64,000 nt of DNA from a virus (IMGVR_UViG_3300047313_000015:33340-97339), one strand, 5' to 3'; shown: positions 29,474 to 30,987, numbered from the stretch's first letter. Numbers and translations are program-made. Notes: a model not told the origin generated them from the letters alone.

Positions 29474-29550
29474 CGCGGGTGATGGGATTCGAACCCACAT
29501 GCATCCAGTTACCTTTTCGACTGTTTAGGAAACAGAGAGGATACACCCGT
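29474..29550 (-). tRNA. Non-canonical (rewired D arm) tRNA-Arg(CCT)
   Basis: Acceptor, T arm and loop TT-CCT-AA present; no D hairpin, TATCC pairs with GGATG 3' of anticodon arm. Confidence 0.75.
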
Positions 29551-29613
29551 GTGTCTAAACGATCTTGAACTTTTGTACCTCCGGAGCGGGCCGGAAGCCC
29601 GGAATTCATTCCG

Positions 29614-29692
29614 TACCCCCGCTAGGAATCGAACCTAGCTTGCCAACGGCGTGAGTTTTACAGACTCACTGCTGCACCAGCAGCACGAAGGT
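29614..29692 (-). tRNA. tRNA-Tyr(GTA)
   Basis: Loop CT-GTA-AA, variable arm GCC-GTT-GGC. Confidence 0.85.
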
Positions 29693-29693
29693 G

Positions 29694-29765
29694 TGGTGAC
29701 GAGCCAGCCATCGAAGGACAACGCTTGAGAGTTTATGAGGCTCTCTCGGCCAACCTGCGCCCGTC
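29694..29765 (-). tRNA. Degenerate tRNA-like gene, CAT anticodon, ACCA end
   Basis: GACGGGC/GCTCGTC-ACCA, GAGAG..CTCATAA..CTCTC; weak D and T arms. Confidence 0.55.
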
Positions 29766-29770
29766 TTGTG

Positions 29771-29843
29771 TAGACCCGGTGGGACTCGAACCCACGATTA
29801 CCTGTTTGTAGGACAGGAGCCCTTGCCGCTGGACGACGAGTCT
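29771..29843 (-). tRNA. tRNA-Val(TAC), C33
   Basis: Cloverleaf, loop CC-TAC-AA. Confidence 0.88.
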
Positions 29844-29857
29844 GTATTTTTACTGCG

Positions 29858-29932
29858 CACTCCTGACAGGGGTCGAACCTGCATGATCCATTACCCTTTC
29901 ATCTGGTTCGAAGCCAGAGGGGATACAGGAGC
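29858..29932 (-). tRNA. Non-canonical (rewired D arm) tRNA-Arg(TCG)
   Basis: GCTCCTG-TATCC-CCT-CTGG-CTTCGAA-CCAG-ATGAA-AGG-GTAAT-GGAT-CAT-T arm-CAGGAGT-G. Confidence 0.8.
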
Positions 29933-29944
29933 CTATATCTTACG

Positions 29945-30018
29945 CGCACCCAGAAGGACTCGAACCTTCACAAGACGCGGCTCCGCAAGCCGCCGCACGT
30001 CCCTCGTGCTGTGGATGC
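29945..30018 (-). tRNA. tRNA-Arg(GCG)
   Basis: Cloverleaf, loop TT-GCG-GA. Confidence 0.8.
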
Positions 30019-30098
30019 TAGCCCGGAGTCTCTCTATATCCCGCCTGTCGGCTCTCCGGATCACCTTTCGGTGCTGCCCTGCGGCAGGGGACAAATGG

Positions 30099-30222
30099 AG
30101 GGGCGTTCTCTCCGCTGAACTATCACTCGTAACTGCACCGATATCAAATGCAGCCTCCCAGCCTACTTGCGCGCTTACTCGGCGGGAAGAGAGTGAGCCG
30201 GATTCGAACCGACGTTTCCCCT
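30099..30222 (-). ncRNA. Circularly permuted tRNA mimic (YrlA-like) 1
   Basis: AGGGG-AAAC-T arm-TCACTC-[two hairpins]-GAGTGA-TA-D arm-G-CCCCT. Confidence 0.8.
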
Positions 30223-30225
30223 TTG

Positions 30226-30299
30226 CGGTGACTACGGGATTTGAACCCGCGATCTTCCGGGTGACAACCGGGTGCTCTGCCTGACTGAGCTAAATCACC
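30226..30299 (-). tRNA. tRNA-Asp(GTC)
   Basis: Cloverleaf, loop TT-GTC-AC, G73. Confidence 0.92.
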
Positions 30300-30385
30300 T
30301 TGGACAGTTTTGTTGTAAGGACTTCTGCCAACCTTCAGGCGGGTACTTCCATCGCAGTTTAAGAGCTACTAGTATCACCGCTTCG

Positions 30386-30466
30386 AGCCAGGTACGGGAA
30401 TCGAACCCGCGCCGCTAATCCGGGGTGAAAACCCGGCGACTCCTAAGCCAACAGAGTAAACCTGGC
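30386..30466 (-). tRNA. tRNA-Glu(TTC), enlarged variable region
   Basis: Loop TT-TTC-AC. Confidence 0.8.
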
Positions 30467-30470
30467 GGGA

Positions 30471-30555
30471 GTGAGTGCTCTTTATCGCTCTGAGCTATAT
30501 CCGGACTCGCCTAGGTTACCGGTAATAGGAGCGCGCGACTGCTCCGACCTCTCAC
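30471..30555 (-). ncRNA. Circularly permuted tRNA mimic 2
   Basis: GTGAG-AGGTC-GGAGC/GCTCC arm-closed acceptor CCGG/CCGG-TA-GCTC/GAGC D arm-A-CTCAC. Confidence 0.7.
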
Positions 30556-30557
30556 CG

Positions 30558-30634
30558 TACCGATGACCGGAATCGAACCGGCAACTCCTCTGCTTGAGGG
30601 GCAGGGTGCGAACCACCAGATGGCGCGCATCGGC
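30558..30634 (-). tRNA. tRNA-Glu(CTC), C33
   Basis: Loop CC-CTC-AA. Confidence 0.75.
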
Positions 30635-30688
30635 TTGAGTCCAGCAACAACCGTACTGGACTAGATCAGTCGCGTAGCGTGCTGATCT

Positions 30689-30895
30689 TTATCTATTGTA
30701 GTACCTGTTGATCATGTCAGCAGGCTCCTGCGAAGCTGGCGGGCTGATCACGATCACAACCTTGCCCTCTTCCGTGCTGTTGTAGACCCGAAGCTCTGAT
30801 CCATCGGGGATCTCGACTCCTGAGATAATCTCTGGCTTCAGATCACCACATGATGTGATGACCCTCAGTGGGCCATAGGATGCTACGTTTCCCAT
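30689..30895 (-). CDS. Hypothetical protein inside tRNA array
   Basis: RBS AGGAGG, MGNVASYGP... Confidence 0.6.
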   Translation of the reverse strand: MGNVASYGPLRVITSCGDLKPEIISGVEIPDGSELRVYNSTEEGKVVIVISPPASQEPADMINRYYNR

Positions 30896-30913
30896 TGTAC
30901 CACACCTCCTACG

Positions 30914-30987
30914 CACCCCTGACAGGACTCGAACCTGCATCCTCCGTTATGCACCACTGGTTTAGAAAACCGGGCCATTACAGGGGC
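30914..30987 (-). tRNA. Non-canonical D-armless tRNA-Arg(TCT)
   Basis: GCCCCTG/CAGGGGT acceptor, loop TT-TCT-AA, long 3' linker, T arm almost identical to 29858-29932. Confidence 0.7.

What the first reader, a model, noticed from the sequence alone, without database searches (positions are those of the whole stretch)
29474..30987. Family of three topologically rewired tRNA-Arg genes (CCT, TCG, TCT) lacking a D hairpin
Seen: 29474-29550, 29858-29932 and 30914-30987 have normal acceptor stems, canonical T arms and perfect 7-nt anticodon loops, and all three anticodons are Arg. There is no D arm: in two of them nt 8-15 (TATCC-YCT) pair with AGG...GGAT located 3' of the anticodon arm, and a D-loop-like GGTAA is looped out on that 3' side. 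No canonical tRNA for these three Arg anticodons is present in the array. Inference: a functional alternative fold in which the D loop (GG and the ArgRS A20 determinant) is supplied from the variable-loop side; standard tRNA finders would probably miss them, and they might evade tRNA-targeting defences.
Basis: partly seen in the sequence, partly recalled or inferred. Interest (0 to 1): 0.88.

Follow-up and report, generated by a model that had tools for sequence, protein, structure and literature searches.

The report
Rewired phage arginine tRNA genes
Three unannotated genes in this soil phage's tRNA cluster are very probably working arginine tRNAs in which half of the D stem and the whole D loop lie after the anticodon arm instead of before it, a non-cloverleaf design shared by hundreds of phages, mostly missed by gene finders, and absent from every paper I could search.

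Summary
The three loci are real and lie on the minus strand. ARAGORN misses all three, and Rfam's tRNA model scores them below threshold.

They belong to a large class. I collected 216 distinct sequences from viral contigs, and the class also occurs in cultured phages (Felix O1-like, rV5-like, Streptomyces, crAss-like and others).

The layout is: acceptor, U8-A9, a 3-nt strand, the anticodon arm, a spacer, the complementary 3-nt strand, a complete D-loop-like segment (A14 R15 .. G18 G19 N20 .. A21), Y48, then the T arm.

- **Helix:** paired in 97.8% of cells, with compensatory changes at all three pairs.
- **Levitt pair:** positions "15" and "48" covary as in ordinary tRNAs.
- **Anticodons:** only Arg (101) or Ile-type (115).
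- **Identity bases:** N20 is A in Arg genes and U in Ile genes. All Ile genes have A73. These match published identity rules.
- **Replacement:** rewired Arg-TCT genes replace the ordinary one (1/55 loci against 54/127).

The pairing they drew (ATCC/GGAT, YCT/AGG) does not. Charging, decoding and any role in evading defences are untested.

This scan has already reported the same class on many other genomes. I found no paper describing it.

The parts
29474..29550 (-). Candidate 1: rewired tRNA-Arg(CCT), 77 nt, 5-nt-spacer type. Acceptor stem has an A1.C72 mismatch; discriminator G; no encoded CCA.
   Evidence: Sequence read, parsed. Class model R1 scores it 82.4 bits against 24.3 or less for ordinary tRNAs. 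Rfam tRNA 24.7 bits, below the cut-off of 29. Not called by ARAGORN.
29527..29529 (-). Candidate 1 anticodon CCT (reads AGG), in the loop UUCCUAA.
29538..29540 (-). Candidate 1 5' helix strand, C11 C12 U13.
   Evidence: Pairs with A37 G38 G39. The helix is supported by covariation across the class.
29512..29514 (-). Candidate 1 3' helix strand AGG, directly before UAA.
29499..29511 (-). Candidate 1 D-loop-like segment UAACUGGAUGCAU. Reads as 13, A14, A15, .., G18, G19, A20, .., A21, U48.
   Evidence: Motif conservation, N20 against anticodon, and 15/48 covariation.
29482..29498 (-). Candidate 1 T arm: GUGGG, UUCGAAU, CCCAU.
29858..29932 (-). Candidate 2: rewired tRNA-Arg(TCG), 75 nt, 5-nt-spacer type. 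G1.U72; discriminator G. Lies 12 nt downstream of the ordinary tRNA-Arg(GCG).
   Evidence: R1 76.1 bits. No Rfam hit at E<1. Not called by ARAGORN. The same neighbour arrangement occurs in Streptomyces phage Francob.
29909..29911 (-). Candidate 2 anticodon TCG (reads CGA/CGG), in the loop CUUCGAA.
29920..29922 (-). Candidate 2 5' helix strand, C11 C12 C13.
   Evidence: Pairs with G37 G38 G39.
29894..29896 (-). Candidate 2 3' helix strand GGG, directly before UAA.
29883..29893 (-). Candidate 2 D-loop-like segment UAAUGGAUCAU (A14, A15, G18, G19, A20, A21, U48).
29866..29882 (-). Candidate 2 T arm: GCAGG, UUCGACC, CCUGU.
30914..30987 (-). Candidate 3: rewired tRNA-Arg(TCT), 74 nt. Belongs to a distinct sub-type with connector UAWUGGC and NNGY-GCA before UAA. 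G1.U72; discriminator G; C.A mismatch in the anticodon stem.
   Evidence: R1 52.8 bits. Rfam 27.6 bits, below 29. About 27 relatives in IMG/VR, all Arg. Also present in Gilson, Mildred21 and NiceHouse.
30964..30966 (-). Candidate 3 anticodon TCT (reads AGA), in the loop UUUCUAA.
30974..30977 (-). Candidate 3 5' helix strand, U11 G12 G13 C14.
   Evidence: Proposed pairs are U11-A38, G12-C37, G13.U35 and C14-G34, with G36 bulged. These bases are invariant within the sub-type, so the pairing is inferred and not shown by covariation.
30950..30955 (-). Candidate 3 3' helix strand GGUGCA, directly before UAA.
30939..30949 (-). Candidate 3 D-loop-like segment UAACGGAGGAU (A14, A15, G18, G19, A20, A21, U48).
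30922..30938 (-). Candidate 3 T arm: GCAGG, UUCGAGU, CCUGU.
29944..30018 (-). Context: the contig's only ARAGORN-called tRNA-Arg (GCG, reads CGY). With the three rewired genes it completes a non-overlapping set for all six Arg codons.

Best explanation
The three genes encode elongator tRNAs for arginine: CCU for AGG, UCG for CGA/CGG, and UCU for AGA. They belong to a widespread, phage-borne class with a re-threaded core.

[quoted passage not shown] After U8-A9 the chain enters one strand of a short D-type helix and runs straight into the anticodon arm. After the anticodon arm and a 4-8-nt, mostly A-rich spacer comes the complementary strand. A complete D loop follows (A14, R15, G18, G19, N20, A21), then Y48, then the T stem.

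**In canonical numbering.** The segment 10-21 has been moved from before the anticodon arm to after it. The four-way junction becomes a three-way junction.

**Inferred, not shown.** The usual tertiary contacts (U8-A14, R15-Y48, G18-psi55, G19-C56) can still form, giving an L shape. Host ArgRS charges these tRNAs through A20, C35, U/G36 and N73. They then decode on host ribosomes.

**Sister genes.** Members with NAU anticodons carry U20 and A73 and would be charged by IleRS.
For: Of these, 93 distinct sequences had the whole layout.
2. **Helix covariation.** The helix between 11-13 and the 3 nt before TAA is paired in 97.8% of cells. All three pairs show changes on both sides; pair 12, for example, reads CG 35, GC 33, UA 22, AU 2. 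The whole structure is 98.5% paired, against 49% or less when the partners are slid.
3. **Levitt-type covariation.** With position '48' left free, A15 goes with U48 in 78 of 81, and G15 goes with C48 in 31 and G48 in 9 of 41 (Fisher 2e-27). Both states occur within at least 5 sub-lineages. The base before 48 is A in 122 of 122.
4. **Identity elements.** Of 216 distinct genes, 101 have Arg anticodons, 113 Ile, 2 CAT, and none any other. N20 is A in 100 of 101 Arg genes and U in 112 of 113 Ile genes. The discriminator is A in 113 of 113 Ile genes and G, A or U in Arg genes. These match the published bacterial rules: Arg uses A20, C35, U/G36, A/G/U73; Ile uses A73, U20, A35, U36 (PMC9976931 Table 1).
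5. **Encoded CCA.** CCA directly follows the discriminator in about half of the Arg genes.
6. **Replacement of the ordinary gene.** In array loci with a rewired TCT gene, an ordinary tRNA-Arg(TCT) is present in 1 of 55, against 54 of 127 without one (p=1e-9). Sixteen other anticodons show no significant difference, and array size is the same.
7. **In this phage.** AGG, AGA and CGA make up 31% of Arg codons in 18 long ORFs. The ordinary GCG gene plus the three rewired genes cover all six Arg codons without overlap.
8. **Independent records.** Members not used to train the model score 54-84 bits, while ordinary tRNAs mostly score below 30 and reach at most 35-40. They occur in Mildred21, Gilson, A3Wally, Francob and NiceHouse.
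9. **Essentially phage-only.** One scan of 596 Gb of cellular genomes gave 27 hits, about 20 of them real, mostly inside dense tRNA arrays on MAG contigs.
Against: - There is no experimental evidence of transcription, processing, charging or decoding. No RNA data could be brought to bear.
- The three-dimensional model is only a mapping of conserved bases onto canonical positions. No structure was computed.
- Candidate 1 has an A1.C72 mismatch that no relative shares, so that copy may be impaired.
- Candidate 3's helix is invariant in sequence within its sub-type, so its pairing lacks covariation support. It also has a C.A mismatch in the anticodon stem.
- The sequences are related to one another, so the Fisher p-values overstate independence.
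- The loci are truncated pieces of contigs, so some absences of ordinary tRNAs could be gaps in sampling.
- My search patterns fixed part of the D-loop-like segment and the T loop. Divergent members with other anticodons could have escaped.
Confidence: 0.8

Rival explanations
1. They are tRNA mimics that act as decoys or sponges rather than decoders. For example, they might bait host anticodon nucleases or other tRNA-directed defence enzymes, or tie up ArgRS.
For: - They sit in phage tRNA arrays alongside other tRNA-like oddities, as noted by other first-stage readers.
- Relatives carry RNA-repair genes near their arrays: RNA ligase and polynucleotide kinase in Gilson.
- A changed core could alter recognition by enzymes that read the D arm.
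Against: - A decoy would need only an anticodon stem-loop. It would not need strict A20/U20, discriminator rules, an encoded CCA, or a preserved 15/48 pair.
- A decoy would be expected beside the ordinary isoacceptor, not instead of it. Ordinary tRNA-Arg(TCT) is present in 1 of 55 loci with a rewired copy, against 54 of 127 without.
- In this phage, a decoy reading would leave 31% of Arg codons without a phage tRNA, while the other Arg codon family has one.
Confidence: 0.08
2. They are working tRNAs as in the best explanation, and in addition the rewiring is adaptive. It lets the phage's Arg and Ile tRNAs escape host tRNA-targeting nucleases, or the phage's own host-tRNA-destroying enzymes, that recognise the ordinary D arm.
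For: - The layout is almost confined to phage-type arrays.
- It repeatedly replaces the ordinary gene.
- It has spread across very different phage groups.
- From my own knowledge: Arg-specific and Ile-specific tRNA nucleases exist (colicin D, some CdiA-CT toxins), and phage tRNAs have been reported to evade anticodon nucleases through sequence changes.
Against: - Nothing here tests it.
- Known anticodon nucleases mostly read the anticodon loop, which is ordinary in these genes.
- The restriction to Arg and Ile is equally explained by a single origin followed by a one-base anticodon change (UCU to UAU) plus switches at N20 and N73.
- Spread could instead be driven by the HNH homing endonuclease genes seen next to several copies.
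Confidence: 0.25
3. The fold is the one the first reader drew. Nucleotides 9-12 (AUCC) pair with GGAU and 13-15 (YCU) with AGG, looping out GGUAA as the D-loop mimic.
For: The complementarity exists in candidates 1 and 2. The minimum-energy fold of candidate 1 uses part of it.
Against: - Across 93 relatives these two helices are paired in only 54% and 62% of cells, and the outer helix shows no change on both sides.
- Candidate 3, SSBI34, LPML1 and the crAss-like copies lack the complementarity.
- It would bury the invariant GG. That GG, with the following identity base and the 15/48 covariation, behaves as G18 G19 N20.
Confidence: 0.03
4. They are decaying tRNA pseudogenes or rearrangement scars with no function.
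For: Standard tools reject them. Candidate 1 has a terminal mismatch and candidate 3 a stem mismatch. Thermodynamic fold z-scores are unremarkable.
Against: - Hundreds of distinct copies in unrelated phage groups keep every helix through compensatory changes.
- They keep the tertiary pair and the identity bases.
- They replace the ordinary gene.
Confidence: 0.02

Closest known systems
Ordinary bacterial and phage tRNA-Arg and tRNA-Ile (class I cloverleaf, Rfam RF00005)
   Same: - 7-bp acceptor stem and a discriminator.
- 5-bp anticodon stem with a 7-nt loop, U33 and A37.
- 5-bp T stem with a TTCRA loop.
- The conserved core bases U8, A14, R15, G18, G19, A21 and Y48.
- The published identity sets: A20/C35/U-G36 for Arg; A73/U20/A35/U36 for Ile.
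- The same place in phage tRNA arrays.
   Different: - There is no D hairpin.
- One D-type strand follows U8-A9 and leads directly into the anticodon arm. The other strand and the whole D loop come after the anticodon arm and run into the T stem.
- There is no separate variable loop and no position-26 linker.
- The secondary structure is a three-way junction, not a four-way junction.
- Rfam scores are 38 bits or less, often below the cut-off of 29, against 45-74 bits for most ordinary tRNAs.
D-arm-lacking mitochondrial tRNAs, such as nematode mt-tRNA-Ser(UCU) (review PMC7609411)
   Same: No D hairpin between the acceptor and the anticodon arm. A working tRNA that is not a cloverleaf.
   Different: - The mitochondrial forms have lost the D arm, which a short connector replaces. 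According to the review they have short or degenerate T arms and rely on flexibility.
- Here every D-loop and T-loop base is kept and merely re-ordered.
- The setting is bacterial translation, not an organelle.
Circularly permuted tRNA genes of the red alga Cyanidioschyzon merolae (from my own knowledge; not checked in the library)
   Same: The order of tRNA segments along the DNA differs from the textbook order.
   Different: - In the alga, the 3' half precedes the 5' half, and processing through a circular intermediate restores an ordinary cloverleaf.
- Here the acceptor strands are at the two ends in normal order, so the mature RNA itself would be re-threaded.
allo-tRNAs with 8/4 or 9/3 acceptor/T branches (PMC5389517, listed)
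   Same: Natural non-standard tRNA architectures discovered in genome and metagenome data, partly phage-associated.
   Different: In allo-tRNAs the change is in the lengths of the acceptor and T stems. The D arm is a hairpin in its usual place.
Candidate structured RNA DNAVirus_2961 of Fremin et al. 2023 (PMC10690425)
   Same: A conserved viral RNA motif from IMG/VR that sometimes overlaps ARAGORN tRNA-Arg calls, as a few members of this class do (5 of 93).
   Different: I cannot tell whether it is the same RNA. The figure and supplement are not held, and the paper does not describe the architecture.

Membership tests
tRNA, canonical cloverleaf (Rfam RF00005 / ARAGORN model) | 7-bp acceptor stem closed by the two ends, plus a discriminator | tested here: met
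   Candidate 1 has 6 of 7 pairs (A1.C72). Candidates 2 and 3 have 7 of 7, including G1.U72. The helix is 99.1% paired across 93 relatives.
tRNA, canonical cloverleaf (Rfam RF00005 / ARAGORN model) | Anticodon arm: 5-bp stem and a 7-nt loop with U33 and purine 37 | tested here: met
   The loops are UUCCUAA, CUUCGAA and UUUCUAA. The inner 4 bp are 99.7% paired across the class. The outermost pair is U.U in candidate 1, and candidate 3 has one C.A.
tRNA, canonical cloverleaf (Rfam RF00005 / ARAGORN model) | T arm: 5-bp stem and a TTCRANN loop | tested here: met
   (97.2% paired).
tRNA, canonical cloverleaf (Rfam RF00005 / ARAGORN model) | D hairpin (stem 10-13/22-25 closing the D loop) between position 9 and the anticodon arm | tested here: not met
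   Only 7 nt separate the acceptor from the anticodon stem in all three genes and in all 216 relatives.
tRNA, canonical cloverleaf (Rfam RF00005 / ARAGORN model) | Reaches the curated score (Rfam 29 bits) or is called by ARAGORN | tested here: not met
   Rfam gives 24.7 bits, no hit, and 27.6 bits. ARAGORN calls none of the three and overlaps 10 of 291 genes of the class.
Rewired (D-segment-transposed) phage tRNA class, as defined in this report | U8-A9-N, then a 3-nt strand that pairs with the 3 nt directly before UAR, enclosing the anticodon arm | tested here: met
   Candidate 1 pairs CCU with AGG; candidate 2 pairs CCC with GGG. Candidate 3 is a sub-type variant (UGGC with G-Y-(G)-CA) whose pairing is inferred only.
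Rewired (D-segment-transposed) phage tRNA class, as defined in this report | UAR, then 1-3 nt, GG, N20, 2-3 nt, A, Y, running directly into the T stem | tested here: met
   The segments are UAACUGGAUGCAU, UAAUGGAUCAU and UAACGGAGGAU.
Rewired (D-segment-transposed) phage tRNA class, as defined in this report | Covariance-model score well above that of ordinary tRNAs | tested here: met
   The three score 82.4, 76.1 and 52.8 bits, against 24.3 or less for the window's ordinary tRNAs. The three were in the training set. Independent members score 54-84 bits.
Bacterial tRNA-Arg identity set (Giege and Eriani 2023, Table 1) | A20, C35, U/G36, and A/G/U73 | tested here: met
   All three have A after GG, C35, U36 or G36, and G73. 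This depends on reading the base after GG as position 20. That reading is supported by the class-wide association of A with Arg and U with Ile.
Bacterial tRNA-Arg identity set (Giege and Eriani 2023, Table 1) | Is aminoacylated by ArgRS | not testable with these tools
   Needs an in vitro charging assay or acid-gel or periodate analysis of RNA from infected cells.
D-arm-lacking mitochondrial-type tRNAs | D arm lost and replaced by a short connector, with D-loop/T-loop contact bases degenerate | tested here: not met
   A14, R15, G18, G19, A21 and the TTCRA T loop are conserved, and 15/48 covaries.
Circularly permuted tRNA genes | The 3' half is encoded upstream of the 5' half, so the acceptor ends lie in the middle of the gene | tested here: not met
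   The acceptor strands are at the two ends and pair with each other.

The most novel reading that the evidence does not exclude
Ordinary bacterial ribosomes, ArgRS and IleRS routinely use natural tRNAs that are not cloverleaves. In this phage-borne class the 5' D strand and the D loop are transposed to the 3' side of the anticodon arm, and the same tertiary contacts rebuild the L shape. In this reading the rewiring is also adaptive. It would make the phage's Arg and Ile decoders invisible to host (or phage) enzymes that recognise the ordinary D arm, and neighbouring homing endonucleases would spread it between phages.
Probability: 0.25. Interest if true: 0.95.

Novelty: new variant of a known kind. 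Interest (0 to 1): 0.85.

Why it matters
All tRNAs known to work in bacterial cells are drawn as one cloverleaf. The 2020 review of non-canonical tRNAs lists only changes in stem length, plus loss of arms in mitochondria.

If these genes are charged and used, the L-shaped tRNA can be built from a different strand order. ArgRS, IleRS, EF-Tu, RNase P and the ribosome would all have to accept it.

- **tRNA evolution and engineering.** It would be a new natural scaffold, possibly orthogonal to some enzymes.
- **Phage annotation.** The Arg-TCT form alone gives matches in 246 cultured-phage records, including Felix O1-like and rV5-like coliphages. Among the rows listed it is mostly unannotated, called a 'hypothetical protein', or labelled 'tRNA-OTHER' or 'tRNA-Undet'. 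In Mildred21 another member, the Arg-TCG copy, is named tRNA-Phe.
- **Codon-usage studies.** Work that counts phage tRNAs will be missing these.
- **The phage-host contest over tRNA.** This matters if the fold changes susceptibility to tRNA-directed nucleases.

The question is directly testable in E. coli with existing phages.

Tried and rejected
- **Thermodynamic folding.** Folding the three RNAs alone gave z-scores of -1.3, -1.2 and -0.4, with mixed structures. This did not discriminate between models, so I relied on comparative data.
Counted and rejected.
- **RNA evidence.** One search for sequencing runs listed no RNA holder. The only full holder is a soil metagenome that may be the source of the DNA. 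I did not lay reads.
- **Literature.** Seven full-text searches and three papers read gave no description of this layout. The supplement of PMC10690425 is not held, so I could not tell whether its DNAVirus_2961 is this RNA. Subscription-only papers are outside the library.
- **Noisy scan.** The CATAA scan for candidate 3's relatives mostly caught ordinary tRNA-Met, and the true relatives were picked out by layout.
- **False positives.** My loose regex also caught about 25 ordinary tRNAs, which were removed by requiring the 7-nt TA connector. About 7 of the 27 genome-collection hits were chance matches.
- **Candidate 1's mismatch.** I looked for relatives that share A1.C72 and found none.
An earlier scan note says this of a like claim on other DNA. 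Two further look-ups did not reveal which part. I therefore avoid any claim of being first, and any claim of a pseudoknot. My secondary structure is nested.
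Full report
**What is in the window.**
The window holds a dense tRNA array on the minus strand. ARAGORN genes between 27.8 and 38.9 kb. The whole assembly is one 97,339-bp contig at 57.9% G+C, has no further tRNAs, and carries only one tRNA-Arg, with anticodon GCG. The contig's DNA is held in full by a soil metagenome run.

The three loci of the finding lie in gaps of this array. Read on the minus strand, each has:
- a 7-position acceptor stem;
- UA, then five more bases;
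- a 5-bp stem with a 7-nt loop showing U33, A37 and CCU, UCG or UCU;
- 15-19 further bases;
- a T arm with UUCGA;
- the 3' acceptor strand and a discriminator G.

Seven bases cannot make a D hairpin. ARAGORN skips all three. Rfam's tRNA model gives 24.7 bits, nothing, and 27.6 bits, against a cut-off of 29.

**They are conserved, and far beyond this phage.**
blastn found short matches of 76-89% identity in many large actinophages. It also found weak full-length matches in Salmonella phage SSBI34 (Vequintavirinae), phage LPML1 (Ounavirinae), a crAss-like phage and a faecal virus. Reading those places showed the same layout, with UCU in the first two and UAU (Ile) in the last two.

I then scanned IMG/VR for the junction that an ordinary tRNA cannot have, a GTAA..GG motif running into the T arm. 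Parsing gave 93 distinct sequences with the whole layout.

Later scans left other positions free. Together with a general detector that puts no constraint on anticodon, N20, discriminator or positions 15/48, they raised this to 216 distinct genes.

The Arg-UCU form alone occurs in 246 cultured-phage records: Escherichia, Salmonella and Klebsiella phages of the Felix O1 and rV5 types, 380-kb jumbo coliphages, Proteus and Vibrio phages. The Ile form occurs in 77 Streptomyces phages and in crAss-like phages.

One scan of 596 Gb of cellular genomes gave only 27 hits. About 20 are real, and most sit in arrays of 12-29 tRNAs on MAG contigs.

**Anatomy.**
The order is:
- acceptor (7);
- U8 A9 N10;
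- a 3-nt strand (11-13);
- one base;
- the anticodon arm (5 + 7 + 5);
- a spacer, usually WGAAA, CRTTAAYN or AGNA;
- a 3-nt strand complementary to 11-13;
- U-A-R, 1-3 nt, G-G, N, 2-3 nt, A, Y;
- the T arm;
- the acceptor 3' strand;
- the discriminator.

On a 93-sequence alignment, my structure is paired in 98.5% of cells, against 49% or less when partners are slid. The new helix is paired in 97.8% of cells and shows changes on both sides at all three pairs; pair 12 reads CG 35, GC 33, UA 22, AU 2. Copies found later add A11-U and U11-A.

It would also bury the invariant GG.

**The segment after the helix behaves as a D loop.**
I left the last base before the T stem free. It is U in 78 of 81 genes with A at the second position after the helix. 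It is C (31) or G (9) in 41 genes with G at that position (Fisher 2e-27). Both states occur inside at least five sub-lineages of both amino-acid types. That is the behaviour of the R15-Y48 Levitt pair. The base before it is A in 122 of 122 genes, as A21 is.

The segment therefore reads 13, A14, R15, Y16, Y17, G18, G19, N20, .., A21, Y48.

My inference is that canonical segment 10-21 has been moved to lie between the anticodon arm and Y48. The strand after U8-A9 then takes the place of 22-25. The coaxial D/anticodon stack and the D-loop/T-loop corner could form as usual. This mapping is a model; no structure was computed.

**Identity.**
All 216 distinct genes carry Arg anticodons (UCU 77, CCU 13, ACG 7, UCG 3, CCG 1) or NAU anticodons (UAU 99, GAU 14, CAU 2).

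- N20 is A in 100 of 101 Arg genes and U in 112 of 113 Ile genes.
- The discriminator is A in all 113 Ile genes and G, A or U in Arg genes.
- CCA follows the discriminator in about half of the Arg genes.

The published bacterial identity sets are A20, C35, U/G36, A/G/U73 for Arg, and A73, U20, A35, U36 among others for Ile (PMC9976931 Table 1). This fit is the strongest argument that the RNAs are made to be charged.

**They replace ordinary genes.**
I compared 182 fetched loci that hold at least five ordinary tRNAs. An ordinary tRNA-Arg(UCU) is present in 1 of 55 loci with a rewired UCU gene, and in 54 of 127 without one (p=1e-9). Sixteen other anticodons show no significant difference, and array sizes are equal, with medians of 12 and 13. 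The trend is the same for ACG, CCU and UAU, but numbers are small.

In this phage, AGG, CGA and AGA make up 16.7%, 7.9% and 6.9% of Arg codons in 18 long ORFs. The four Arg genes, ordinary GCG plus rewired UCG, UCU and CCU, cover all six Arg codons without overlap.

**The three genes individually.**
- **Candidates 1 and 2** are typical members with the 5-nt spacer. They score 82 and 76 bits with the class model, against 24 bits or less for the window's ordinary tRNAs. They were in the training set, but independent members score 54-84 bits.
- **Candidate 1** has an A1.C72 mismatch that is unique in the alignment.
- **Candidate 2** follows the ordinary tRNA-Arg(GCG) by 12 nt. A rewired UCU gene does the same in phage Francob.
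- **Candidate 3** (53 bits) belongs to a separate sub-type with connector UAWUGGC and NNGY-GCA before UAAYGGA. About 27 IMG/VR relatives, plus Gilson, Mildred21 and NiceHouse, carry it. All are Arg with A20, and most have CCA. Its helix bases are invariant, so its pairing (U11-A, G12-C, bulged G, G13-Y, C14-G) is inferred only.

**Detection and annotation.**
ARAGORN overlaps 10 of 291 genes of the class. Rfam's tRNA model gives the class 29-38 bits or less, and most ordinary tRNAs 45-74 bits. GenBank records label these places as nothing, 'hypothetical protein', 'HNH endonuclease', 'tRNA-OTHER' or 'tRNA-Undet'. In Mildred21 one is labelled 'tRNA-Phe(gaa)' although its anticodon is UCG.

**What is shown and what is inferred.**
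- **Shown:** the layout, its conservation, the covariation of all helices and of 15/48, the identity correlations, the replacement pattern, and the confinement to phage-type arrays.
- **Inferred:** the three-dimensional arrangement, charging by ArgRS and IleRS, use on the ribosome, and a single origin followed by a UCU/UAU switch.

**Prior knowledge.**
The searchable library holds no description of this layout. The 2020 review of non-canonical tRNAs does not mention phages at all.

This scan's own notebook shows that the same class has been reported by other agents on many other genomes, with the same general reading. One note says that part of a like claim failed a later check, without saying which part. 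Those notes were read after my analysis and are not evidence.

Noticed in passing
window 29944-30018 (-): The contig's only ARAGORN tRNA-Arg (GCG) is itself atypical. It has C8 instead of U8 and a 5-bp D stem with a 5-nt AGGGA loop, and Rfam's tRNA model does not report it at E<1.
   Followed up: partly
window 36462-36535 (-): ARAGORN calls a tRNA with anticodon TTA (an ochre-suppressor type) directly beside tRNA-His. Rfam lists no tRNA match for it.
   Followed up: no
L001 3102-3461; L125 16553-16987; L442 42-404: HNH endonuclease genes lie within 2-25 nt of rewired tRNA genes in SSBI34, Mildred21 and A3Wally. Several blastn hits also fall under 'HNH endonuclease' annotations (warpig, TomSawyer). 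Homing could explain how the rewired allele displaces ordinary tRNA genes.
   Followed up: partly
L001 2987-3091; L002 2985-3090: In SSBI34 the 5' leader and 3' trailer extend the acceptor stem to about 13 continuous base pairs (TTTAGC+GCGGGTG with CACCCGC+GCTAAA). LPML1 has a similar 6-bp extension. This may matter for processing.
   Followed up: no
L087 8183-8420 (-): Three rewired Arg genes (CCG, CCT, TCT) stand in tandem, 8-9 nt apart. Two of them carry the G15/C48 form and one the A15/U48 form.
   Followed up: partly
L018 3917-3996 and 5499-5578; L037 1156-1237: Divergent members (40-52 bits) have a 4-bp helix shifted by one position and a longer D-loop-like segment (GGAGYTGnnAAAT). They still carry Arg anticodons and A20.
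   Followed up: partly
window 28869-29060 (-): A weak Rfam beta-tmRNA match (21.7 bits) and a weak hit of my class model (20 bits) fall on a tRNA-like element with no called anticodon, between tRNA-Asn and tRNA-Met. Another first-stage reader also noted it.
   Followed up: no
L125 8 kb region 6391-8043; L124 8902-10518: The Streptomyces phage arrays that hold rewired tRNAs also encode a Ro-like RNA-binding protein, a tmRNA, an RNA ligase and a polynucleotide kinase. This is an RNA quality-control and repair neighbourhood.
   Followed up: no
alignment A1, column 14 against the last spacer base: The base after the 5' helix strand and the base before the 3' helix strand are mostly C.A (64), A.C (8) or A.A (8). 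This may be a conserved non-Watson-Crick pair in the place of 26.44.
   Followed up: partly
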